From sequence record NC_048818.1: a stretch of 64,000 nt of DNA; one strand, 5' to 3'. Positions within the stretch are counted from its first letter, which is position 1, and the number at the start of each line of letters is the position of its first letter. Shown here piece after piece: positions 1-35,674 of this stretch. The notes under the pieces are model-generated. The model was not told the origin of the DNA. It did not search any database and saw nothing but the letters and a program-made list of their open reading frames with translations. The position numbers and the translations under genes were made by a program. This stretch comes from Escherichia phage VEc33.

Positions 1-123
1 TGTCCACTGCCTCCGGCGAAAATACTTAGTCTGCTAACCGCCACCCCCGTTACTATTACCATGCTAACTGTTTCACCCTGCAACCATTTTAATTGCAAGG
101 TGAAACAATTTCAACTTTAATTA

Positions 124-858
124 TTACGCAACTTTTAATTTCTCAATATATTGTTGCGGGCTGCAACTATATTCTGCGCGTTCTTCTTCGGTCATACCTT
201 CCCAACATAATTGCAGGCGGTCGGCTAGGAACTGATAATCATTATCATCGTCGAGAGATTCATCGATAAAGGTTTCACCTATCAATGTCACGCCGATTGA
301 TAGAATATCGTTAACGGCTTGTGCGTCCAGCGTTTTAAATCCGTATGACGCTGCCGCTGATAGCACGCCTTTATGATCATCAATCATTGTAAAATCAGCG
401 TTCGGATATAATTGTTTGAATAGCCCAAAATAGTAACTTTTATAAACTGCGTCTTTGCTGTGGTATATCTCGCTAACTTTATCAGCCTCAAAATATTTGT
501 GTAGTGTATCGCGGGAAAATACACGGATATTACTATCACCACGACCGCGCAACCCTTGTTTACGCAAATAATAATAGTCCGACTTGCTCATTAGTCGAGC
601 GGTGCAAATAATGTTTAAAGTATTTACGTCATTCATGCACTGGCGCATATATGTAACAAGGGGTAATAGTGTATCTTGCATTATTAAATCATGTTTGCAG
701 GCTTCATTTTTATACTTATTTAAATCTAAATTGCCCTCGCTATCAAAGCAAGGCGCTACACGATGAAACGAATTAATGATAGTGCCGTCCAGATCCCAAA
801 TCATGACGCGGGAAATATGCGGGAAATTACGGGTAATATTCGTTTTAACTTGATTCAT
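124..858 (-). CDS. dmp: HAD-family 5'-deoxyribonucleotidase (T5 dmp-like); the six-frame ORF extends to 900 but the likely start is the internal Met at 858
   Basis: DxDGT motif (WDLDGTII) near the N-terminus typical of HAD phosphatases; 244 aa from the internal Met with a GGAG-type RBS upstream; position next to the A1-like gene. Confidence 0.6.
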   Translation of the reverse strand: MNQVKTNITRNFPHISRVMIWDLDGTIINSFHRVAPCFDSEGNLDLNKYKNEACKHDLIMQDTLLPLVTYMRQCMNDVNTLNIICTARLMSKSDYYYLRKQGLRGRGDSNIRVFSRDTLHKYFEADKVSEIYHSKDAVYKSYYFGLFKQLYPNADFTMIDDHKGVLSAAASYGFKTLDAQAVNDILSIGVTLIGETFIDESLDDDNDYQFLADRLQLCWEGMTEEERAEYSCSPQQYIEKLKVA

Positions 859-938
859 TTTGTTACGTTCTCCATTAAAGGGATTTAGTTTATCCAGCAT
901 TACCCGCTATTTATAAGCGGGTAATAATAAATCAACTA

Positions 939-1331
939 TTAAAGACCATAAGCCAACGCATCAGCGATAAAACTAATATCCTCGCCAGATACACCGGAAC
1001 GAATCCCCGCACAAGTATATACTTTTGCGCTGATCAATTGATCATCAAGACAAGCGGGGCAAGGCGCGACAACTGCAAAGGCTAGGCCGGATTTTACGGC
1101 GTCGATGATAATCGTTTCTTGTTTCACCGTGTCAACATAAACGCCTGCGGCCTTAATGTAACTACTTGCGCGGCCTTGCGTATAGGCAAAGGTAGTAACC
1201 TGCAAAGCGTCATTAAAGTCTAGTAGTTCATCAATAACGTGCCCTGCCTCAACGTGATACCGCTCACCATTAGAATAAACCAGAACAATTGAGGACTGAG
1301 CGCGATCGAATGGAATATTTTGCTTTTTCAT
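939..1331 (-). CDS. hypothetical pre-early protein (130 aa)
   Basis: Intact ORF co-oriented with and tightly spaced to neighbours; no recognisable motif. Confidence 0.45.
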   Translation of the reverse strand: MKKQNIPFDRAQSSIVLVYSNGERYHVEAGHVIDELLDFNDALQVTTFAYTQGRASSYIKAAGVYVDTVKQETIIIDAVKSGLAFAVVAPCPACLDDQLISAKVYTCAGIRSGVSGEDISFIADALAYGL

Positions 1332-1369
1332 ATTTATATAACTCCAATTAGTTTAATAAGGGGTTTAAT

Positions 1370-1627
1370 TTATTTGATAATAATCTGCATCTGGTACGGC
1401 GTTAATTCACCGTTTACGGGTAAATTATTATCGCTTAGCCACTCATAAAAAGCGCCATCATCATCAAAGGGGACAATATCGTTATCACGGGAATCGACGG
1501 AAATAATACCATCCGTATTAGTTTTGGCGGCTAGGATAGGCCCGAAGCTGTAAACTTTATCAGATTCCATTTCATCCGGTGAAATGAATACTTTTTCGTC
1601 CAATGTTTTGGGTAATGTAACTTTCAT
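1370..1627 (-). CDS. hypothetical pre-early protein (85 aa)
   Basis: Intact ORF, co-oriented, tight spacing. Confidence 0.4.
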   Translation of the reverse strand: MKVTLPKTLDEKVFISPDEMESDKVYSFGPILAAKTNTDGIISVDSRDNDIVPFDDDGAFYEWLSDNNLPVNGELTPYQMQIIIK

Positions 1628-1682
1628 TTTTGTGGCTCCTGTAATAGCGGCTATATTTCAAGCCGCTAGGGAAATAATTTAT

Positions 1683-3353
1683 TTACGCAAAGAATTTACC
1701 GTTTTTAAAGTCAATCAAAGTGCGCTGACCGTTTGCATAGGTAATTAAATGCGTTTGCGTCCAGCTTGACGCGCCAACGTTGTAACCCATATCCAGACTA
1801 CCAGCAACGCCAGCGGTATATACGCCGCCATAAATGCTGGCGGTATGGGTATGCCCCGTGTTTAACTTGCCCAATTTTTTAAATTGTTTAGGATTGCCAC
1901 GACTGCCGTTAATGCCATTGTGACCGTGTACGCCGCATTCAATGCCTGCAATCTTGAAAGATTGATCAGTGGTCAGGAAAATGGCGTTAAATTCACAACC
2001 TGCAACCTTGCGCAACGCATAATCTAGCACGTTAAACGTTTCGTCGTGTTCACCGATTGCCGCGTAAATTGCAGCATTCAGGCGGTGATATAACTCGGCG
2101 TTTGCTGGATCGTCTTTGATGTTAGCATTACGATCATCAAGCCAACGGGATAGCGCCAAATCGTGATTAGATTCAACAATGATTGTTTGACTAAAATCAC
2201 GTTCCATTGATTCCAGCACGCGCCCCGTATCGATAAGATCATCCAGAACTTTATCACGTCCGGCGGCGTATTGTTTAGCTAGGAATACACCGGATGCGCG
2301 GTTATGATGATTGCGGGATGTAAAATCGTGAACGTCATGCACAAACTGATATTTTGGTTTAAGAATATCTACTAGCCCATAAGTATCACCATGCCCCCAA
2401 GATGCGGCGGCGCACTCCTCATCTAATTTTTCGGCGTGAATATCGCCATACTGCAAGCCTAAAACATGCCCCGATGTCTCATAGCATCCGGCAGGAGTAG
2501 CGCAAACGTTCAGATCATAAAACACCCCGCTTTCGTCCATTGTTTCAAGCTGGCGAACAAAAAATTCCCCGTCCTCGTCGAACTCGACAATCAGCGCACC
2601 GAAGTTATGCAGCGCCTCGGCCTTTTGTCCTGCTTTCTGCTGAATGTAGTTTTTTAACGTTGCCGTTCCGGTTGAATACATACGGCGCACTACTTCACCT
2701 TTTAAAGCTGGCACGCTTTCAGCGGTAATTTTAGCGTGACCAATTGCCAGCCCCTCAATATTTAAAGCCGTTGCAGTCTCGGCGAATCCAGAAAGCGGAT
2801 AATCTGCGGTTGGCAAAACATTAATTTCAGCCATGAAAGCAAAGCGGCGGTTATTTAAAAACACGTTTTTGCTGCAAATATATTTATCGAACGCGGAATC
2901 ATATTTGATTCCATCCGCACCTTCCCCATTTTGAAAACCGTTTTTATTATAAATATACTTAGAAACAAGCAAATCAGCACCGATATATTTAGCAAATTGC
3001 TCCAGTGAGGCTAAAAAGTTTTTATGCGGGAAAGTATTATTCTGAATCGATGTAATAATAAAGCGTTTACCTTGTTTTACTTCCCATTGCTCCACCGTAC
3101 TAGAAACAATCCCAGCCGCTTCTGGGCGCTCATCATTTTTAATGGCTTTTGCTACTTTTGCCGCTTTTGGTTTCGCTGGTTTATTTGCTTCCAACCAATC
3201 ACAAATGGCGGTGGAGTGTTTAGTAGTATCGTATACCGCTTTCGAAATATCGTCACAAACTTCCAATTTAGTGGCGCGCAGGCGTTTACCGTAGAAGTTA
3301 AAGTCAGCGGCCATTTTCAGGATAACGGTTTGTTTTTCTGCGGAAATAATCAT
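1683..3353 (-). CDS. A1: A1-like pre-early protein, calcineurin-like metallophosphatase/nuclease fold (556 aa)
   Basis: 556 aa, the length I recall for T5 A1; metallophosphoesterase-type motifs (GDIHAEKLDE, GNHD-like, GHTHT); RBS before the ATG. Confidence 0.6.
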   Translation of the reverse strand: MIISAEKQTVILKMAADFNFYGKRLRATKLEVCDDISKAVYDTTKHSTAICDWLEANKPAKPKAAKVAKAIKNDERPEAAGIVSSTVEQWEVKQGKRFIITSIQNNTFPHKNFLASLEQFAKYIGADLLVSKYIYNKNGFQNGEGADGIKYDSAFDKYICSKNVFLNNRRFAFMAEINVLPTADYPLSGFAETATALNIEGLAIGHAKITAESVPALKGEVVRRMYSTGTATLKNYIQQKAGQKAEALHNFGALIVEFDEDGEFFVRQLETMDESGVFYDLNVCATPAGCYETSGHVLGLQYGDIHAEKLDEECAAASWGHGDTYGLVDILKPKYQFVHDVHDFTSRNHHNRASGVFLAKQYAAGRDKVLDDLIDTGRVLESMERDFSQTIIVESNHDLALSRWLDDRNANIKDDPANAELYHRLNAAIYAAIGEHDETFNVLDYALRKVAGCEFNAIFLTTDQSFKIAGIECGVHGHNGINGSRGNPKQFKKLGKLNTGHTHTASIYGGVYTAGVAGSLDMGYNVGASSWTQTHLITYANGQRTLIDFKNGKFFA

Positions 3354-3443
3354 AGTAATAAAACTCCATTAAAGGGATTAGGTTAATAACGGCAATATTG
3401 CCAAATATAACGCCTCGAACAATAGGCGTTATAATTTGCAACA

Positions 3444-3641
3444 TTAATTTAAAGGCACTAGGCTAGAACTAACACCACAAGCAACGGCAGCGATAAAACA
3501 AAGCAGACCTAAACGTTTTGCTAATTTAGATTTACGTTTAAAATAATATGAATCTAAATCATTTTGAAAATAAGCGAATAATAGGGAGGCCGCCATAATA
3601 AATAAGCCTAGAATTAAAGATTCAGTAGGGAAGAAAACCAT
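3444..3641 (-). CDS. small hydrophobic membrane protein (65 aa)
   Basis: Two hydrophobic segments; intact ORF between terminator-like hairpins. Confidence 0.35.
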   Translation of the reverse strand: MVFFPTESLILGLFIMAASLLFAYFQNDLDSYYFKRKSKLAKRLGLLCFIAAVACGVSSSLVPLN

Positions 3642-3731
3642 TTTTAAAACTCCTGATTTAAGGGAAGAAAATAACTATCGCTAAACAGTTATATTATTGC
3701 CCCCTCACTAAAAGGGGGCAAGATATAACTA

Positions 3732-4139
3732 TTATTCGCCTGCGGCCTGTTTTACTTCATCGGCAACGCCTAACAATTGCGCTACTGCGTCCAGCGTTTC
3801 AAGTTTTGCACTTTCAAGGCTTGCCAAATCATCGGCGTCTTTGATAATGCCGGAATCAATAGCATGTTTAGCGATAACGCGCACATAGTGAGCTTTACGC
3901 ACAGAGCTACCGCCGCCAACTTTACGCGGCTTATCGCTTTTTTGATAGGCTTTTGCACTGGTCAATTTTGAGCGAACGGATACGGGGGAGGCCGCGCCTA
4001 CTGCTTTTGCAATCTCTTTCAGGCCGTCGCTATTTGCAAAATCTAAACCGTTTTCGTTGATTAACTGCTGGTACATGGTAACAGCTTTCTGAGTGTTTTC
4101 TTCATTCCATGCGAATTTTGCGGTTTTTGCGTTAGTCAT
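3732..4139 (-). CDS. pre-early protein, possible A2-like DNA-binding protein (135 aa)
   Basis: Position immediately upstream (in transcript order) of the A1-like gene; basic central region; hairpin terminator downstream at about 3690-3720. Confidence 0.4.
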   Translation of the reverse strand: MTNAKTAKFAWNEENTQKAVTMYQQLINENGLDFANSDGLKEIAKAVGAASPVSVRSKLTSAKAYQKSDKPRKVGGGSSVRKAHYVRVIAKHAIDSGIIKDADDLASLESAKLETLDAVAQLLGVADEVKQAAGE

Positions 4140-4242
4140 GGTAAAAACTCCTATTAGTTTAATTTAAGGGATTAGATTAGATTAACTTAATGTTAATCGT
4201 TATATCCCCCTGAAATAAGAGGGATATAAAGTTAGCACTAAA

Positions 4243-4494
4243 TTATAAAACAGCTTCCCATTTTTCGTTGCGTTGAACAACCTTTACAACATCGCCGGAT
4301 TTAACGCGAACGCTAAAAACGGGCTTGCCGTTGTTACTGCGTTCATTTTCAGCGTATACCGCGTCGATTGTATCGAACGGCATAAGCGCCGCACCTTTAA
4401 TACGTTCGGCTTTTCCGGTTAATTCGTCCATTTTAGTAACGAAAGGAATAAAAACGGATTGACCAATTTTAGGCGCGGTAATAACGTTTTGCAT
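4243..4494 (-). CDS. hypothetical pre-early protein (83 aa)
   Basis: Intact ORF with RBS; hairpin at about 4205-4235 downstream. Confidence 0.4.
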   Translation of the reverse strand: MQNVITAPKIGQSVFIPFVTKMDELTGKAERIKGAALMPFDTIDAVYAENERSNNGKPVFSVRVKSGDVVKVVQRNEKWEAVL

Positions 4495-5371
4495 AATATA
4501 AACTCCTAGTTATTTGGGGATTGTTCCGCATTACCTGCTAGAAAGTAGCAGGTAATAAGTAACAATCCGCTCGCCAGTTTAATCAATTTAAAGAACTCCA
4601 CGTAGGCCGCTATATCCCGTTAGGGGGCGGGATGCATTATGGTAAGCACCGACCGTCAAATTTTATCAAGTTATCGCTCTTTTCGAACTGGGTACATCTT
4701 AAAACCTATCGGCTAGGCTGTCAAACAATTTTTTGAGATTTTTTATGATTTTCCTTCAGGTCAATCATAATGTTTCGCCAGATCATTTCTAAACCTTGCT
4801 GGCGACCTTGCAAATATTGCTTGAATCGCCATTTTACAGAATTTTGCGCTACTGTCAACAAGTTTTTTGTTTTGCTATCTAGTGCCTTGCTAGGCTTGCC
4901 AGTGATCAAAAGCGTTTGTTTCATATCGTCGATTCCTTATAATGAATAAGTTTACCGCCGATAGGCTTTAAGATATACCCAATTTTTAAAGAGCGCGGCG
5001 GTAAACTTCCCGCCGTGTAGTTCGTCATTGCCGCCCTACGAGATACATAATAGGGGATTCCCAAAAATGGCGCAACCTTATTTTTGTAAAGAAACGTAAA
5101 GACACGATTCACCGGACGGCGTGCGGCGACGGCCTAAAATTAAAAGAAACGGGCGCGCGAATACCACAAAACAGAACAAATAGGCAAGTAATTTTTTCAT
5201 TTATATTTGCTTTGCCCTACTTGACAAAATCTAAAAAGCTCGTGGCAGTGATAAACGGCGTGCCCCCTTATGATGGGATGGCTAAAAACTTCATCGCGTT
5301 CTAGGGCGTTTTAGGCGCATTCTAGCCTTGTTGATAACTTATCCCCAAAAGCAAAAATGAAATTTTCCTAG

Positions 5372-5797
5372 TTATCCACTTGACTTTTATTTTCCAGTGG
5401 ATAACTACTTATTTTATGAAATAAATTAATTGACTTTTATTTGTTAGTATGCATCGGAAAGATAGCAGACTAATAATTGCTAGAATGATAATCATGCTGG
5501 TGGATTGTAACGACCTGAATTATTAGCAGACTATTAATCACGGAAAATCTCATTAGCTAACTAACTATTTCCTGAGTTATAATATACATATAAATTAATG
5601 AGAAATAATAACTATAATAAATAATAACCGATAGGAATAATAACTATAAGAAACTATCGGCCTAAGTGAGAACCACTATCATTTAAGTTATCCACAAGTT
5701 TATTAACAGCACTTTTTGATTTGACACGATAGGCGGCGATATAAGCACTTATCCACAGACTTATCCACATGTTATCCTACTGTATAAATATACAAGA
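5372..5797. promoter_or_regulatory. divergent control region with at least five DnaA-box matches (TTATCCACA/T) and a LexA-box-like palindrome (CTGTATAAATATACAA at 5780-5795)
   Basis: TTATCCACT at 5372-5380 and reverse at 5396-5404; TTATCCACA at 5688-5696, 5749-5757, 5761-5769; CTGT-N8-ACAA adjacent. Confidence 0.6.
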
Positions 5798-6062
5798 CAA
5801 AAAGGTAGTGTTAACAACTGCAATCAATTTTAAGCGGCCTAAATCGCTTTCTAACGAGCAAAACGCTGTAGGGTAATACTAAAGTAAAGCCTCAACGCGT
5901 CGCCCTGGTGGCTTCGCCGTGTTTTGCTCTTTATTGCACCGCTGCGCGGTTAGCATAAAACTAGGCGTTAGGCAAGGAAAATAAAAAGGTAAAATAATAT
6001 TTGCCCCTAGAAAGAAAATACCTTTATCATTCACTCACCGATTAACGAGGGAGGCCGAACAA

Positions 6063-7073
6063 ATGAGGCTTTATAAACCAGATAACGCAACCGTCTTAAA
6101 AGGTGCGCTGCGTAACCTGCTGGACGGTAGCAAGTCAACCAGCATTAAACATTTTATTAACAAGGCTGAAACTATTCATCAAAACTTTTTTGATGACTAT
6201 GACGCCTATGATATGGATGGTTTTTTGCCATTATACAAGTATGGGGCAACGCTTGTTTTATATAATCGGGATTGCCATATCTTTACAGGCAGGGGAGCGG
6301 GGCCGGATACCGATTTTATTATTGCGCAGGGTAATAATATTGTTGCGTATCATAGCAATTCAGGCCGTCAATCATTTAATATAAATGGTTTTGAGCTTAT
6401 TGGGCTTGATCTGATAAACGGACTTTCTAGTATTGAGGGATTTTTAGATGTTATCTGGAAGTATTTACCAGCTGGATGGCATAAGCCGGATAACGACGGA
6501 TCTCAATATACTGGTATAATGGCTTTTGATGGCGACGGTAATTTTTTGTTACCCCGGGAGCTATACCCATATATTTATGATGGGGATATAGAAAGCGCTG
6601 GTTTTTCTTTCTGGAAAGATGAAGATCAGATTATTGACAGCGTAGAAAACCATGCTGTAAATTCTAACACTCAAAGCGTTAAAACTCAAACTACTGAAAA
6701 CAAAGGAAAAAACACCATGACCAAGATCGCTAATATTGTTGCCGCTAATAAATCCGCTGTTGTAAACGCTGCAAAACTGGAAGCGGGTAAAATTGCACTG
6801 ACTCAAATTACGAAAGTAGCGGCTAAAAAAGCACCGTTTATGATTAAAGGTTATATTGATACACCCATCGGTCGAGTAGTGATTGCCAACCTGCTGAGCG
6901 TAGCGGTTGACCAGTACGCCCCAAGTAACCAAAAGGCGAAAGCGGTGGCAGGTGCAGCTATGGAAGCGGCTATGTTAGAAATGGTACAAAGTTTTAATAT
7001 CGCTGAAATGATTGATGAAATGGTGAAAGGTATTGATATTTCTACTTTTACCACTAGCACCGAAAGCGAGTAA
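6063..7073 (+). CDS. hypothetical protein (336 aa), first gene of the rightward block
   Basis: Long ORF with GAGG RBS; Ala/Lys-rich C-terminal half; no recognisable catalytic motif. Confidence 0.55.
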   Translation: MRLYKPDNATVLKGALRNLLDGSKSTSIKHFINKAETIHQNFFDDYDAYDMDGFLPLYKYGATLVLYNRDCHIFTGRGAGPDTDFIIAQGNNIVAYHSNSGRQSFNINGFELIGLDLINGLSSIEGFLDVIWKYLPAGWHKPDNDGSQYTGIMAFDGDGNFLLPRELYPYIYDGDIESAGFSFWKDEDQIIDSVENHAVNSNTQSVKTQTTENKGKNTMTKIANIVAANKSAVVNAAKLEAGKIALTQITKVAAKKAPFMIKGYIDTPIGRVVIANLLSVAVDQYAPSNQKAKAVAGAAMEAAMLEMVQSFNIAEMIDEMVKGIDISTFTTSTESE

Positions 7074-7140
7074 TAACTAATTTAGCGGGGATTGTTTCCC
7101 CGCTTTATTATTCCCTTGTTAATTAATAGGAGGCTAATAA

Positions 7141-7635
7141 ATGGCTGCGGAAAAATATGGCTTCTCACTGGGAGAAGTGAGCACAGCTAAACACGATATG
7201 ATCATTTTGGTTGATTGTCATACGGGTTACTGCGGGGAAGGGAATACCGAGGAATATTTTGTTCCTGCTGGTACGGATCTGGACGCTTTAGCTCACGAAA
7301 TGGCTATTGATAATGCTTCTCGTTTTGGTAGCGATGGCTATGAAGACGAAGATACTGGCGAATGGTATGAAAATGAAAACGTATATGCAAGCCTTTATCA
7401 TTATCAATTAAGTAAATCCGGCACATATGTAAACGGCGGCGATCCTATTAATTCCGTCATGAAATTAATTATTAAATATGGTGGCGTCGAGATAATTGAT
7501 AACAAAGCGGTAATATATGCAAACCGATTAAAACAGCTTGTTTATATTCCTGATAGTACCCGATGGGAGGAATACGCTGTTTTGCATGACGAATTGAAAC
7601 GATGTTTCAATATTGAATCCTTACAAGTAGTCTAA
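7141..7635 (+). CDS. hypothetical protein (164 aa)
   Basis: ORF with AGGAGG RBS; followed by a hairpin terminator. Confidence 0.55.
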   Translation: MAAEKYGFSLGEVSTAKHDMIILVDCHTGYCGEGNTEEYFVPAGTDLDALAHEMAIDNASRFGSDGYEDEDTGEWYENENVYASLYHYQLSKSGTYVNGGDPINSVMKLIIKYGGVEIIDNKAVIYANRLKQLVYIPDSTRWEEYAVLHDELKRCFNIESLQVV

Positions 7636-7650
7636 TGTAAAGTTTTGTAA

Positions 7651-7678
7651 AGGCCGCCTCTTATGGTGGCCTTTTTTG
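7651..7678 (+). terminator. Rho-independent terminator
   Basis: GC hairpin AAAGGCCGCC...GGTGGCCTTTTTTGTT with T-run. Confidence 0.6.
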
Positions 7679-7741
7679 TTATAATGCCTTTACACCGTTT
7701 GAGGACGGTTGAAAATTTCCCAAAAAAATTGGAGGCTTAAA

Positions 7742-7972
7742 ATGGTTGCTTATTCTTCTGCTAGTCATCTGTTCACCGCTCAAGGCTGGGTGTCTAATCG
7801 CGTCATCATTCATGAAATGGTGCAGGAGTTCGGCATTGCTAAAACGTATAATACCATTCAGGAACTATATAACGCTGATAAAATCGATCAGCAAACGGCT
7901 GGCTTTTTGCTGGATACCCTGAAAGCGGAACACTGTACCAAAAAACAAGCGGCAAAAATTGTTTTAATGTAA
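7742..7972 (+). CDS. hypothetical small protein (76 aa from the RBS-supported ATG)
   Basis: GGAGG RBS 7 nt upstream of ATG 7742; the six-frame ORF begins further upstream at 7709. Confidence 0.45.
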   Translation: MVAYSSASHLFTAQGWVSNRVIIHEMVQEFGIAKTYNTIQELYNADKIDQQTAGFLLDTLKAEHCTKKQAAKIVLM

Positions 7973-8021
7973 TTAATAACGGGGCGTTACTTTCGCCCCA
8001 CTAACTAGGGGAGTAGTACAA

Positions 8022-8171
8022 ATGGTTATTTTTCGGGCTATTTTAGCTGGTATCTTGGGCGCCATTTTATCGTTGTTTGCAATAGCTTTCGGTGTTCACG
8101 CCGTTATTATCGGCGCGGGTATCGCCGCATTTTCTTATCTGCTGGGCTGCATGACTGGTAAAGGAGAATAA
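8022..8171 (+). CDS. small hydrophobic peptide (49 aa), absent from the ORF track
   Basis: ATG after GGGGAG RBS; translation MVIFRAILAGILGAILSLFAIAFGVHAVIIGAGIAAFSYLLGCMTGKGE; stop overlaps the RBS of the next gene. Confidence 0.4.
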   Translation: MVIFRAILAGILGAILSLFAIAFGVHAVIIGAGIAAFSYLLGCMTGKGE

Positions 8172-8173
8172 AA

Positions 8174-8386
8174 ATGATCCGCAACGTTTCTCTTGCTCGT
8201 TCGAAAGGCTTTAAGCTGGTGGATGTTAACACGTTCGAGCGGGAAGATTGTAAAATCGAATATGTAGCACGTAACAAAAATGCCTTTCGTGTTACCGAGA
8301 AAAAATTTGACAAGCGCGGCAACGTGATCGCTGAAACGGTTAAACACTTTGCCACCTTTTACGCTGCGTTTCGGGGAGTGTTATAA
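8174..8386 (+). CDS. hypothetical protein (70 aa)
   Basis: AAGGAG RBS; translationally coupled to neighbours. Confidence 0.5.
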   Translation: MIRNVSLARSKGFKLVDVNTFEREDCKIEYVARNKNAFRVTEKKFDKRGNVIAETVKHFATFYAAFRGVL

Positions 8387-8387
8387 A

Positions 8388-8732
8388 ATGGTTATTTATG
8401 AAGGCAATCGCTTTGTTGCTAATTGCCGTCCGGCATTATTAGCAAACTATTTAAATCAGCTTTCCCCAGCTTATAAGGGCGTTATTAATATTTATGAGGG
8501 CAAGGCGCATTATAAAATTAATGCGGTCGTTGCCCGTGAACTAGCGTTTCAATTTTTGACCTTTGCATCTTGTGACGTTCAGGTTATGGGTGAAGCATTA
8601 ATTGCAGAAAATGAAGATGATTTTATTAATATTTTCCGCAAGGTATGCACTGAGCGCCTAGTAATGAAAGGCGCGTATATTCAATCAACCGCTGACAGTA
8701 TTGAAACAGCGTTTCGAAAGGTGGCGCAATGA
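8388..8732 (+). CDS. hypothetical protein (114 aa from internal ATG with RBS)
   Basis: GGAG RBS before ATG 8388; the six-frame ORF begins at 8349. Confidence 0.5.
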   Translation: MVIYEGNRFVANCRPALLANYLNQLSPAYKGVINIYEGKAHYKINAVVARELAFQFLTFASCDVQVMGEALIAENEDDFINIFRKVCTERLVMKGAYIQSTADSIETAFRKVAQ

Positions 8733-8832
8733 GATTATATATTTTCGTTGGTAATGTTGAGGCAGCTAATGATTCCGCTGGTGGCGATAACGTTCGCCGC
8801 TATTGGCAAAAATATATTTACTAGGAGTTATT

Positions 8833-9027
8833 ATGAGCAATAAAATTGTTGTGACCAAAACTACTACGATGGTTGATGTTTTTTACGTGCCCGATACGCC
8901 GGAAAACCGACAAGCGGTCGAGCGTGGCGAATATGATAAAGTGATTTATGATCACGATGGTTATTATCAACATTTGGTAGATTCCTACGGGGAGGAGGAA
9001 AAAATCACGCACCGACTACCCGACTAA
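8833..9027 (+). CDS. hypothetical small protein (64 aa)
   Basis: AGGAG RBS before ATG 8833. Confidence 0.4.
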   Translation: MSNKIVVTKTTTMVDVFYVPDTPENRQAVERGEYDKVIYDHDGYYQHLVDSYGEEEKITHRLPD

Positions 9028-9283
9028 TAATCACGGGGCGCAACTATCAGGAAGTGCCCCCAATTTTCAAATGAGAATGATTATCATTTGACCGCGCCCG
9101 CGATAGTTAGCCTGCTAATGGTTAGGGTGTTACGTGTCGCCTTGTGTGATCGTTAGCGTGCTAACTAATTTTCAAGCCTCCTCCAATTTTGCCCTTGTTT
9201 TAGTATCCCCACCAAAATTAAACGCGTCAGAATGCGATCTAGGACGTTTTAGGCCTATATTAGAATTATTCACTGCATAGGAA

Positions 9284-9303
9284 TACTGTATAAATATACA
9301 GTA
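9284..9303. promoter_or_regulatory. LexA (SOS) box-like palindrome TACTGTATAAATATACAGTA
   Basis: Perfect CTGT-N8-ACAG with AT-rich spacer. Confidence 0.5.
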
Positions 9304-9313
9304 GAATAACCTG

Positions 9314-9394
9314 GGGATAAGTCTGTGGATAACGCTTCAAAATGGCTAGGATTCTGTCAAGTCAAATCGTGCTGTTGATAAGTCTGTGGATAAC
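9314..9394. promoter_or_regulatory. DnaA-box pair in reverse orientation (TGTGGATAA at 9324-9332 and 9386-9394), each preceded by GATAAGTC
   Basis: Reverse complements of TTATCCACA; inverted copy of the 5741-5769 module. Confidence 0.55.
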
Positions 9395-9627
9395 TTAAAT
9401 AGCAGTGTTTCTCACTTCCGTTTTTAAATGCGAATCATTATCATTCGCATTTCACTAGCTAACCGATAATCACTCCACGTTTTAAATGAGAATCATTTCA
9501 CTTCTTGAATAGTTCTCATTCCCTTTCTTAAATGCAAATCATTATCATTCGCATTTCACTTTTTAAATGAGATTGATTCTCATTATCATTCGCATTCAGG
9601 CGAGCAGGGCAATTGCCCTGCGCTTTT

Positions 9628-10228
9628 GTGCAAATCCGACATTTGCCCCCATGGGTTACGCGTGGGCATGTATGTGCAAATCCGACAATTTTTGGTAGTG
9701 TGCAAATCCGACCCGAAAAATTTTTATAGTGTGCAAATCCGACAACGAATTTTCCCAAAAACTCCAGCAATCACGAACTGCGTTCGAATCCTGTGGAATT
9801 AGCTAGAGTATGTGCAAATCCGACATGTGTTGAGCTATGCGAATCCGACAAGATTTTTGTGACTTCGATTGGAGGGTGTGTGATTGTATAAGTTTGAGGA
9901 GAAGATGAGAGAGCGAGAGAAATTTTGGGACTAGAAGGATGTGGGCGCAGGATTGGTGCGGAGCACCTGATTTGCGTGGATTTTGGGGAAGAGTTGAGAT
10001 AATTTGGGAAGATTTGAGATAGGCGCAGAAAAAGTAAAATTTTATTAGCAAAATGGCGCAAAATAGCTTGACAAGTGAAAATTCTTGTGGCTCTAAAAAC
10101 TCAGGCAATCATGGGCCTTCGGCCCGAAATAATGCTGCTATTTTCAGGAGAGTAAGAGTTCCTAAAAACTTAGGCGTTTGTGCAAATCCGACCATAAATT
10201 TCTAGAATATCAATGTGCAAATCCGACA
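9628..10228. repeat. about 8 dispersed direct repeats of GTGCAAATCCGACA
   Basis: Copies at 9628, 9674, 9699, 9731, 9812, 9837 (variant), 10180, 10215; irregular spacing. Confidence 0.6.
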
Positions 10229-10254
10229 GTAATTTCTAGAAATGTGTTTTCGAA

Positions 10255-10355
10255 AAATGTCTCCTAGAAATAACCGCCCTCCCTATAACCGCCCTATATT
10301 AACCGCCTAGTATATGCTCCTAGAAACTTAGGAGAACCGCCCTAGAAAGAGGGAG
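10255..10355. repeat. short tandem-like repeats of AACCGCCCT / CCTAGAAA
   Basis: AACCGCC(C)T four times and CTAGAAA four times within 100 bp. Confidence 0.45.
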
Positions 10356-10680
10356 TATTTCGTGAGAACTCTGGAGTTTCTAGGAAAGTGTTGTGTCATC
10401 CTAGCAGATGAGCGGCAACAGGTGTATCATCTTGAACACAGATATTGCCTTTAAATATTATAAGGTAAATTAAAAGTAAAGTAGCCCCCATTACATGTGT
10501 GCTTACTCGTGGGGCGCGTGATTAATTACGTAAGTCCTCGACTGTCATACCCCTGTTGCTCGGTCGCAAAGAGTTAACGAAGTCTCGTGTAATAATCATC
10601 GCCCCTAGAGTTCAAAACAAAAGTTGTTTTTAATCTATGTGATTATTATAACATGCAGATGGATGAACGTCAAGTAACGT

Positions 10681-35597: not shown

Positions 35598-35674
35598 TGG
35601 CAAACCTACTAGGACTCGAACCTAGACCGTACGGTTTTAGAGACCGACATGCTGTCCAGTAACACTCTAGGAAT
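35598..35674 (-). tRNA. Trp-like tRNA with anticodon CTA (reads UAG), candidate amber suppressor
   Basis: T-arm CTAGG-TTCGAGT-CCTAG and discriminator G as in E. coli tRNA-Trp; anticodon arm TCGGT-CTCTAAA-ACCGT differs from the Trp loop CTCCAAA by one base; acceptor stem has two U-U mismatches. Confidence 0.4.

What the first reader, a model, noticed from the sequence alone, without database searches (positions are those of the whole stretch)
1683..4139. Pre-early host-takeover pair: A1-like metallophosphatase and adjacent A2-like protein
The 556-aa ORF has calcineurin-type metal-binding motifs consistent with a nuclease/phosphoesterase and sits with a HAD deoxynucleotidase (dmp-like) and a small basic protein, all leftward and nearest the genome end. 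This matches the first-step-transfer gene set described for T5. The small ORFs around them (939-1627, 3444-3641, 4243-4494) remain functionally open and could include anti-restriction or anti-repair factors.
Basis: partly seen in the sequence, partly recalled or inferred. Interest (0 to 1): 0.4.

Follow-up and report, generated by a model that had tools for sequence, protein, structure and literature searches.

The report
T5 pre-early genes A1, A2, dmp
This stretch is the well-studied first-injected end of a T5-like bacteriophage, carrying near-identical copies of T5's host-DNA-destroying protein A1, its DNA-binding partner A2 and the nucleotide phosphatase Dmp, so the finding is correct but ordinary.

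Summary
Window position 1 is the left terminus of a Tequintavirus genome (199/200 nt identical to T5 bases 1-200). The 556-aa ORF (1683-3353, minus) is 97% identical to T5 A1, the 135-aa ORF (3732-4139) is 99% identical to T5 A2, and the ORF at 124-858 is 99% identical to T5 Dmp. Gene order and strand match the T5 first-step-transfer (FST) region.

Dmp carries the HAD motifs. A2 has a GcrA/Myb-like three-helix DNA-binding domain and is only mildly basic (pI 8.8).

Corrections: A1 and A2 are separated by a 65-aa two-TM ORF, and "939-1627" is two ORFs. The second of these (85 aa, acidic) is unrelated to T5 gene 003 and replaces it.

A 2026 preprint already calls A1 a predicted metallophosphatase that is necessary and sufficient for host DNA degradation. 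Novelty: already known.

The parts
1..10436 (.). First-step-transfer (FST) / left terminal region of a T5-like genome, up to and including the injection-stop-like repeat region
   Evidence: Window 1-200 is 199/200 identical to T5 1-200. It is collinear with T5 1-10608 at 86-93% identity, with three indels. T5 annotates 1-10219 as the left terminal repeat / FST DNA.
124..858 (-). dmp, 5'-deoxynucleoside monophosphatase (HAD superfamily); an alternative in-frame ATG lies at 900
   Evidence: 99% identical to T5 Dmp. Invariant D22/D24/T26, K140 and D161, with T86 and D160 nearly invariant. 16 of 48 relatives hit Pfam HAD_PNKP. PDB profile hits are mostly HAD phosphatases, though weak (best E 0.0011). 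GGAG lies before the ATG at 858.
939..1331 (-). T5 gene 002 orthologue, 130 aa, function unknown
   Evidence: 88% identical to T5.002; phrog_4576, unknown function.
1370..1627 (-). 85-aa acidic ORF (pI 4.08), a cassette that replaces T5 gene 003; function unknown
   Evidence: No BLASTP similarity to T5.003. DNA homology to T5 breaks at 1380-1634. phrog_8297. Present in 181 phage records, hypothetical or unannotated in every row listed.
1683..3353 (-). A1, 556 aa (61 kDa): host-DNA degradation and second-step-transfer protein
   Evidence: 97% identical to T5 A1; 100% identical to T5_ev219 A1; phrog_1745 E 2.4e-244.
1686..2468 (-). A1 residues 296-556: calcineurin-like metallophosphoesterase domain carrying motifs I-V
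2469..3086 (-). A1 residues 90-295: conserved beta-rich middle region with many invariant polar residues; role unknown
   Evidence: Invariant Q104 N105 T107 Y135 N235 Y236 H249 R267 D280; confidently modelled; not assigned to any fold here.
3174..3353 (-). A1 residues 1-60: three-helix N-terminal domain, followed by a disordered Lys/Ala/Pro linker (residues 61-89)
   Evidence: Helices at 5-17, 26-41 and 47-56, with low pLDDT for 61-89. Distant homologues have a Pfam-significant HTH at this position, but the T5-type N-terminus does not align to it by BLAST.
3444..3641 (-). T5 gene 005 orthologue, 65-aa hydrophobic protein (two transmembrane domains annotated in T5)
   Evidence: 94% identical to T5.005; GRAVY 0.87; phrog_4820 'membrane protein'; the T5 annotation notes two TM domains.
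3732..4139 (-). A2, 135-aa DNA-binding protein needed for second-step transfer
4243..4494 (-). T5 gene 007 orthologue, 83 aa, DUF7177, function unknown
   Evidence: 88% identical to T5.007; PF23801 E 2.8e-41.
4721..4924 (-). hdi (T5 gene 008) orthologue, 67 aa; host division inhibitor in T5
   Evidence: 82% identical to T5.008; PF24188 DUF7416; the hdi function comes from bioRxiv 10.64898/2026.04.02.716235.
4831..4858 (-). Strong sigma-70 promoter-like site (TTGACA-16-TAAAAT) at the position of T5 promoter P-H22
   Evidence: 11/12 consensus match; T5 annotates P-H22 at 4799-4873.
4696..4724 (-). Sigma-70 promoter-like site (TTGACA-17-TAAGAT), about 35 bp beyond the upstream edge of the span T5 annotates as P-D/E20
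   Evidence: 10/12 consensus match. T5 annotates P-D/E20 at 4338-4664, roughly window 4351-4677, so this site lies just outside that annotated span; equivalence is not shown.

Best explanation
The region is the leftward pre-early operon of a T5-like phage (Tequintavirus), on the DNA that enters the cell first. SHOWN HERE: A1, A2 and Dmp are orthologues of the T5 proteins. A1 has a C-terminal binuclear metallophosphoesterase domain of the Mre11/SbcD/PolD-DP1 type with every metal-ligand motif intact. A2 has a GcrA/Myb-like three-helix DNA-binding domain, then a conserved basic linker, then a helical C-terminal part. Dmp is a HAD-superfamily phosphatase. FROM THE LITERATURE ON T5: A1 is necessary and sufficient for degradation of the host chromosome. 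A1 and A2 are both required to resume DNA injection (second-step transfer). A1 shuts off pre-early transcription and associates with RNA polymerase. Dmp converts the released dNMPs to nucleosides, which are excreted. INFERRED: A1 acts directly as a Mn2+/Mg2+-dependent DNase through its metallophosphoesterase site, and its N-terminal helical domain and/or A2 directs it to DNA. The operon is transcribed by host sigma-70 RNA polymerase from strong promoters near 4700-4860. [quoted passage not shown]
Against: No sequence method links A1 to metallophosphoesterases. Pfam gave nothing for A1 or for any of 43 family members, and phmmer and profile searches of the PDB gave only noise. Foldseek gave no hit at E <= 0.001. 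The assignment therefore rests on a predicted structure plus motifs. According to the literature read here (10.1101/866236; 10.64898/2026.04.02.716235), purified A1 has never been shown to have nuclease activity, so direct catalysis on DNA is inferred. The superfamily also includes phosphatases, lipid and nucleotide hydrolases, and inactive scaffolds. How unmodified T5 DNA escapes A1 is unexplained. Metal-ligand geometry in the model could not be inspected with these tools.
Confidence: 0.8

Rival explanations
1. A1 is an active metallophosphoesterase but not itself the DNase. It hydrolyses another phosphoester (a phosphoprotein, a nucleotide or a signalling molecule) and so unleashes a host nuclease such as RecBCD, making DNA degradation indirect.
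Against: The best structural neighbours are nucleases (DP1 exonuclease, Mre11, SbcD). Distant homologues carry an N-terminal HTH DNA-binding domain. Per the preprint, A1 alone is sufficient for chromosome degradation in E. coli.
Confidence: 0.12
2. Davison's model: A1, or an A1/A2 heterodimer, is a site-specific, restriction-like endonuclease. It cuts host sites that are absent from FST DNA, and cuts the phage DNA once beyond the injection stop signal to release the block and allow circularisation.
For: Proposed in bioRxiv 10.1101/866236. It would explain why phage DNA is spared. A2 has a sequence-reading type of fold (Myb/GcrA-like), and A1 relatives carry HTH domains, which could provide specificity.
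Against: Nothing here shows sequence specificity. From my own knowledge, Mre11/SbcD/DP1-type enzymes are structure-specific or end-specific rather than sequence-specific. [quoted passage not shown] In the three other phage families inspected, A1 homologues occur with no A2 detected nearby and no FST-type genome layout.
Confidence: 0.05
3. A1's metallophosphoesterase domain is a catalytically dead scaffold, as in Vps29 or the eukaryotic polymerase B-subunits. A1 would then act only structurally, as a 'DNA transfer protein' at the membrane or on RNA polymerase.
Against: From my own knowledge, dead scaffolds have lost the metal ligands. Here every ligand position of motifs I-V is invariant across 43 sequences whose mean column identity is only 42%.
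Confidence: 0.03

Closest known systems
Bacteriophage T5 pre-early proteins A1 (T5.004), A2 (T5.006) and Dmp (T5.001), NC_005859
   Same: Same lengths (556 and 135 aa, and 244 aa for Dmp from the T5-type start at 858), 97-99% identity, and the same order, strand and distance from the left terminus.
   Different: 19, 2 and 2 amino-acid substitutions respectively. The neighbouring accessory genes differ: gene 003 is replaced by an unrelated 85-aa ORF, hegG is absent, a 164-aa ORF is inserted after gene 011, and gene 016 is mostly lost.
Mre11/SbcD and the archaeal PolD DP1 proofreading exonuclease (calcineurin-like metallophosphoesterase nucleases)
   Same: The predicted fold of A1 residues 296-556 matches, and all five metal-binding motifs are present.
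   Different: Only 9-16% identity among the top hits, and undetectable by sequence profiles. A1 has a large conserved N-terminal extension (residues 90-295) and a helical N-terminal domain. No Rad50/SbcC-like ATPase partner is encoded nearby. Motifs II and III begin with H and S respectively instead of the canonical G.
GcrA DNA-binding domain and Myb/SANT/homeodomain three-helix domains
   Different: No sequence-level match to any Pfam family in the local copy, which would include a GcrA model. Resemblance of the A2 C-terminal part to the GcrA sigma-70-interacting domain was not tested.
HAD-superfamily phosphatases (T4 polynucleotide kinase phosphatase domain, MDP-1)
   Same: Dmp has the DxDxT motif, the motif II T, the motif III K and the motif IV DD. 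Relatives hit HAD_PNKP, and PDB profile hits are HAD enzymes.
   Different: Dmp itself scores below every Pfam and NCBIfam threshold. It also has a C-terminal acidic extension (residues ~190-244) that is absent from most relatives.

Membership tests
T5 A1 family (PHROG 1745, 'DNA transfer protein') | Full-length sequence match to the family profile and to T5 A1 | tested here: met
   phrog_1745 E 2.4e-244, residues 8-555 on profile positions 8-540 of 542; 97% identity to T5 A1 over 556/556 residues.
Calcineurin-like metallophosphoesterase superfamily | Five conserved motifs supplying the binuclear metal ligands: DxH, GDxxD, GNH[D/E], H, GHxH | tested here: met
   G303-D304-I-H306, H339-D340-V-H-D343, S395-N396-H397-D398, H476 and G500-H501-T-H503. 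All ligand residues are invariant in 43 homologues. The leading G of motifs II and III is replaced by H and S.
Calcineurin-like metallophosphoesterase superfamily | Four-layer alpha/beta sandwich fold | tested here: met
Calcineurin-like metallophosphoesterase superfamily | Significant match to a curated sequence model (Pfam Metallophos / Metallophos_2) | tested here: not met
   No such hit for A1 at E <= 0.1, nor for any of 43 family members at E <= 0.05. PDB sequence and profile searches gave only noise. The relationship lies beyond the reach of sequence profiles.
Calcineurin-like metallophosphoesterase superfamily | Metal-dependent phosphoester hydrolysis (here, DNase activity) | not testable with these tools
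   Needs purified protein. The literature read here reports no in vitro activity yet (10.64898/2026.04.02.716235; 10.1101/866236).
T5 A2 family (PHROG 1725 / Pfam PF26822) | Full-length sequence match to T5 A2 | tested here: met
   99% identity over 135/135 residues; phrog_1725 E 8.3e-52; all 67 homologues carry the precomputed PF26822 annotation. That model produced no hit in the local Pfam copy.
HAD superfamily (Dmp) | Motifs I (DxDxT/V), II (S/T), III (K/R) and IV (DD or similar) | tested here: met
   D22, D24, T26, K140 and D161 are invariant, and T86 and D160 are at least 90% conserved, in 48 relatives down to 26% identity.
HAD superfamily (Dmp) | Significant match to curated HAD sequence models | tested here: inconclusive
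   Dmp itself gets no Pfam or NCBIfam hit. 16 of 48 relatives hit HAD_PNKP and 7 hit Hydrolase. PDB profile hits are mostly HAD enzymes but weak (best E 0.0011).
T5-type first-step-transfer (FST) region | Lies at the left genome end, with divergent pre-early operons followed by a repeat-rich injection stop region | tested here: met
   The terminus is identical to T5. The leftward operon spans 124-5028 and the rightward operon 6063-9027. The repeat- and palindrome-rich non-coding region at 9192-10436 is 90% identical to the T5 iss region.
T5-type first-step-transfer (FST) region | The region is duplicated as a roughly 10-kb direct terminal repeat at the right end | not testable with these tools
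   The window covers only the first 64 kb, so the right end is not visible. Close relatives are annotated with LTR, RTR or DTR features.

The most novel reading that the evidence does not exclude
Probability: 0.08. Interest if true: 0.5.

Novelty: already known. Interest (0 to 1): 0.1.

Why it matters
It matters little as a discovery. These are the classical T5 pre-early genes, in a phage about 92-94% identical at the DNA level to many sequenced Tequintaviruses, and the metallophosphatase prediction for A1 is already published. The value here is confirmatory. An independent structure-based test agrees with the published prediction. It also shows that the assignment cannot be reached by standard sequence-profile annotation, which explains why databases still call A1 a 'DNA transfer protein'. 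The open questions belong to T5 biology in general, not to this window. Is A1 itself the DNase? How is unmodified phage DNA spared? What does the conserved middle region of A1 do? Which FST gene gives restriction insensitivity?

Tried and rejected
(1) Sequence-based detection of the A1 metallophosphatase domain found nothing relevant. I tried Pfam and NCBIfam on A1, Pfam on all 43 family members, and phmmer and a family profile against PDB sequences. The best profile hit, a dehydroquinase at E 0.006, aligns only around 'SNH' and is spurious.
(3) I asked whether the 85-aa ORF is a diverged T5.003. It is not: BLASTP finds no alignment, and DNA homology breaks cleanly at the gene borders.
(4) I asked whether the 137-aa 'DNA transfer protein' next to the A1 homologue of Caulobacter phage BL64 is an A2 relative, which would have tied in with the GcrA-like fold. 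It is not (E 12).
(5) I asked whether the 13-nt string shared upstream of A1 and dmp is a regulatory motif. There are only two copies, which is not above the chance level reported by the search, although that estimate was computed with up to 2 mismatches allowed while both copies are exact. Most simply it is a shared ribosome-binding region.
(6) A link between Dmp and the m6-dAMP-sensing PUA-Cal-HAD defence: that preprint does not mention Dmp, and T5 is sensitive to the system, so I dropped it.
(7) Known anti-restriction families (ArdA, Ocr) among the small ORFs: no Pfam hits.

Full report
OBSERVATION. They are 124-900 (258 aa; 244 aa from the ATG at 858), 939-1331 (130 aa), 1370-1627 (85 aa), 1683-3353 (556 aa), 3444-3641 (65 aa), 3732-4139 (135 aa), 4243-4494 (83 aa) and 4721-4924 (67 aa). 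Two details need correcting. The 556-aa and 135-aa ORFs are also not directly adjacent, because the 65-aa hydrophobic ORF lies between them.

IDENTITY. Megablast of window 1-6000 finds 466 phage records, 253 of them covering at least 80% of the query. Nearly all are Salmonella or Escherichia T5-like phages, and the genes under the match are annotated A1 / DNA transfer protein, A2 / DNA-binding protein and deoxynucleoside-5'-monophosphatase. Against the T5 reference (NC_005859), the 556-aa protein is 97% identical to A1 with no gaps. The 135-aa protein is 99% identical to A2, and the first ORF is 99% identical to Dmp. The A1 protein is 100% identical to that of phage T5_ev219. Window bases 1-200 match T5 bases 1-200 at 199 of 200 positions. 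The window therefore begins exactly at the left genome terminus, and 'nearest the genome end' is literally true. These are orthologues rather than merely 'A1-like' genes, and the region is the first-step-transfer (FST) DNA.

SYNTENY AND DIFFERENCES FROM T5. Mapping all T5 FST proteins onto the window and aligning the DNA shows collinearity with four differences.
- T5 gene 003 has no counterpart. The 85-aa ORF at 1370-1627 occupies its slot, shares no detectable similarity with it, and sits in a segment (1380-1634) where DNA homology breaks cleanly. This alternative cassette occurs in 181 phage records and carries no functional annotation in any listed row.
- The HNH endonuclease gene hegG is absent.
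- A 164-aa ORF (7141-7635, phrog_6741, unknown function) is inserted after gene 011.
- Gene 016 is mostly missing.
The preprint 10.64898/2026.04.02.716235 reports that 003, 009, 016 and hegG are the least conserved pre-early genes, which agrees with these differences.

IS A1 A METALLOPHOSPHATASE?

Sequence methods do not see it. Pfam gives no Metallophos hit for A1 or for any of 43 family members. NCBIfam gives nothing. Single-sequence and profile searches of PDB sequences give only noise.

The claim is therefore supported, with one caveat: it rests on a predicted structure plus motifs. The same conclusion is already in print. The 2026 preprint calls A1 a 'predicted metallo-phosphatase' that shares features with double-strand-break-repair nucleases and polymerase proofreading subunits.

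ARCHITECTURE OF A1. The model shows a three-helix N-terminal domain (residues 1-60). Next comes a disordered Lys/Ala/Pro-rich linker (61-89), then a conserved beta-rich region (90-295), and finally the metallophosphoesterase domain (296-556). In distant homologues the first ~45 residues score above Pfam gathering thresholds for HTH_23, HTH_7 or CENP-B_N. BLASTP between A1 and such a homologue starts only at residue 69, so an HTH in the T5-type N-terminus is inferred, not shown. The middle region holds many invariant polar residues (Q104, N105, T107, N235, Y236, H249, R267, D280), and I could not assign it a fold. DP1 aligns over 219 residues whereas single-domain metallophosphoesterases align over roughly 150-165, so part of this region may correspond to the domain that precedes the phosphodiesterase domain in DP1. 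I could not inspect the superposition.

DMP. Dmp has no Pfam or NCBIfam hit of its own. An exhaustive HMMER search found 215 relatives. In an alignment of 48 of them, D22, D24, T26, K140 and D161 are invariant, and T86 and D160 are nearly so. These are HAD motifs I-IV. Sixteen of the 48 hit Pfam HAD_PNKP and seven hit Hydrolase. The profile's PDB hits are weak (best E 0.0011) but mostly HAD phosphatases (MDP-1, the T4 PNK phosphatase domain). 'HAD deoxynucleotidase' is therefore right.

HOW IT WORKS. Three things are shown here: the orthology, the intact binuclear metallophosphoesterase site in A1, and the DNA-binding-type fold in A2. Strong sigma-70-like promoters also lie at 4858-4831 (11/12 consensus match, at the position of T5 P-H22) and at 4724-4696.

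From the T5 literature (10.64898/2026.04.02.716235; PMC10644984; PMC13250531; 10.1101/866236):
- A1 is necessary and sufficient for chromosome degradation in vivo.
- A1 associates with RNA polymerase and shuts off pre-early promoters.
- Dmp dephosphorylates dNMPs, and the products are excreted.

My inference is that A1 is itself the Mn2+/Mg2+-dependent DNase and that Dmp makes the destruction irreversible. Supporting context comes from three phages outside Demerecviridae: Rhizobium RHEph02 (Autographiviridae), a Flavobacterium Elemovirus and Caulobacter BL64. In each, the A1 homologue sits among replication and nucleotide-metabolism genes, next to an annotated dNMP phosphatase of another fold or a MazG-like gene, and I detected no A2 nearby. 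This suggests that the nuclease role is the ancestral core and that the 'DNA transfer' role, with A2, is specific to T5-like phages. It is based on three loci only.

RIVALS. An indirect role, with A1 activating a host nuclease, stays open because no in vitro nuclease activity has been reported. Davison's site-specific A1/A2 endonuclease model has no support here. A dead-scaffold role is contradicted by the invariant metal ligands.

SMALL ORFS. Orthologues of T5 genes 002, 005 and 007 are present at 88-94% identity and fall in families of unknown function. In T5 they are dispensable and were not among the toxic genes (preprint). The 67-aa ORF at 4721-4924 is hdi, the FtsZ-targeting division inhibitor. 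Nothing in my analysis singles out a candidate. The 85-aa ORF is very acidic (pI 4.08) and, being absent from T5, was not among the genes tested in the T5 studies read here.

VERDICT. Interest is low.

Noticed in passing
window 1370-1627 (-): An 85-aa, very acidic ORF (pI 4.08, phrog_8297) occupies the slot of T5 gene 003 but shares no similarity with it. DNA homology to T5 breaks cleanly at 1380-1634, so this is a cassette exchange. It is present in 181 phage records and carries no functional annotation in any listed row. Being absent from T5, it was not among the genes tested in the T5 knockout and toxicity study.
   Followed up: partly
window 5434-5522 and 7080-7632: Relative to T5, the HNH homing-endonuclease gene hegG is missing, and a 164-aa ORF (7141-7635, phrog_6741, unknown function) is inserted between genes 011 and 012. 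Gene 016 is reduced to its first 19 codons.
   Followed up: partly
window 870-882 and 3364-3376 (-): The same 13-nt string, CCCTTTAATGGAG (containing a GGAG Shine-Dalgarno), precedes the start codons of both dmp and A1. It supports the dmp start at 858 rather than the upstream ATG at 900. With only two copies it is not above the chance level the search reported (computed with up to 2 mismatches allowed).
   Followed up: yes
window 9300-10400: The non-coding injection-stop-like region carries seven copies of TGTGCAAATCCGACA, three exact copies of TCATTATCATTCGCATT, two CTGTGGATAAC (DnaA-box-like) repeats at 9311-9333 and 9372-9394, and several palindromes. It is 90% identical to the T5 iss region.
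   Followed up: partly
window 35598-35674 (-): Within the cluster of 23 tRNA genes (28.9-40.8 kb) there is a tRNA with a CTA anticodon, which would read the amber codon. ARAGORN labels it 'Pyl'.
   Followed up: no
A1 residues 90-295 (window 2469-3086, -): A large, confidently modelled, beta-rich region of A1 lies upstream of the metallophosphoesterase domain and carries many invariant polar residues (Q104, N105, T107, N235, Y236, H249, R267, D280). I could not assign it a fold or a function. It is as conserved as the catalytic domain.
   Followed up: partly
L002 (Rhizobium phage RHEph02), L003 (Flavobacterium phage elemoA_7-3A), L004 (Caulobacter phage BL64): A1 homologues (31-39% identity) occur outside Demerecviridae, in phages not described as using T5-type two-step injection. 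They sit inside replication or nucleotide-metabolism modules, next to an annotated dNMP phosphatase of a different fold or a MazG-like pyrophosphohydrolase, with no A2 homologue detected nearby.
   Followed up: partly
proteins P0070, P0076, P0097 (distant A1 homologues): These relatives have a genuine N-terminal helix-turn-helix (HTH_23, HTH_7 or CENP-B_N above the Pfam gathering score) where T5-type A1 has a non-alignable three-helix domain.
   Followed up: yes
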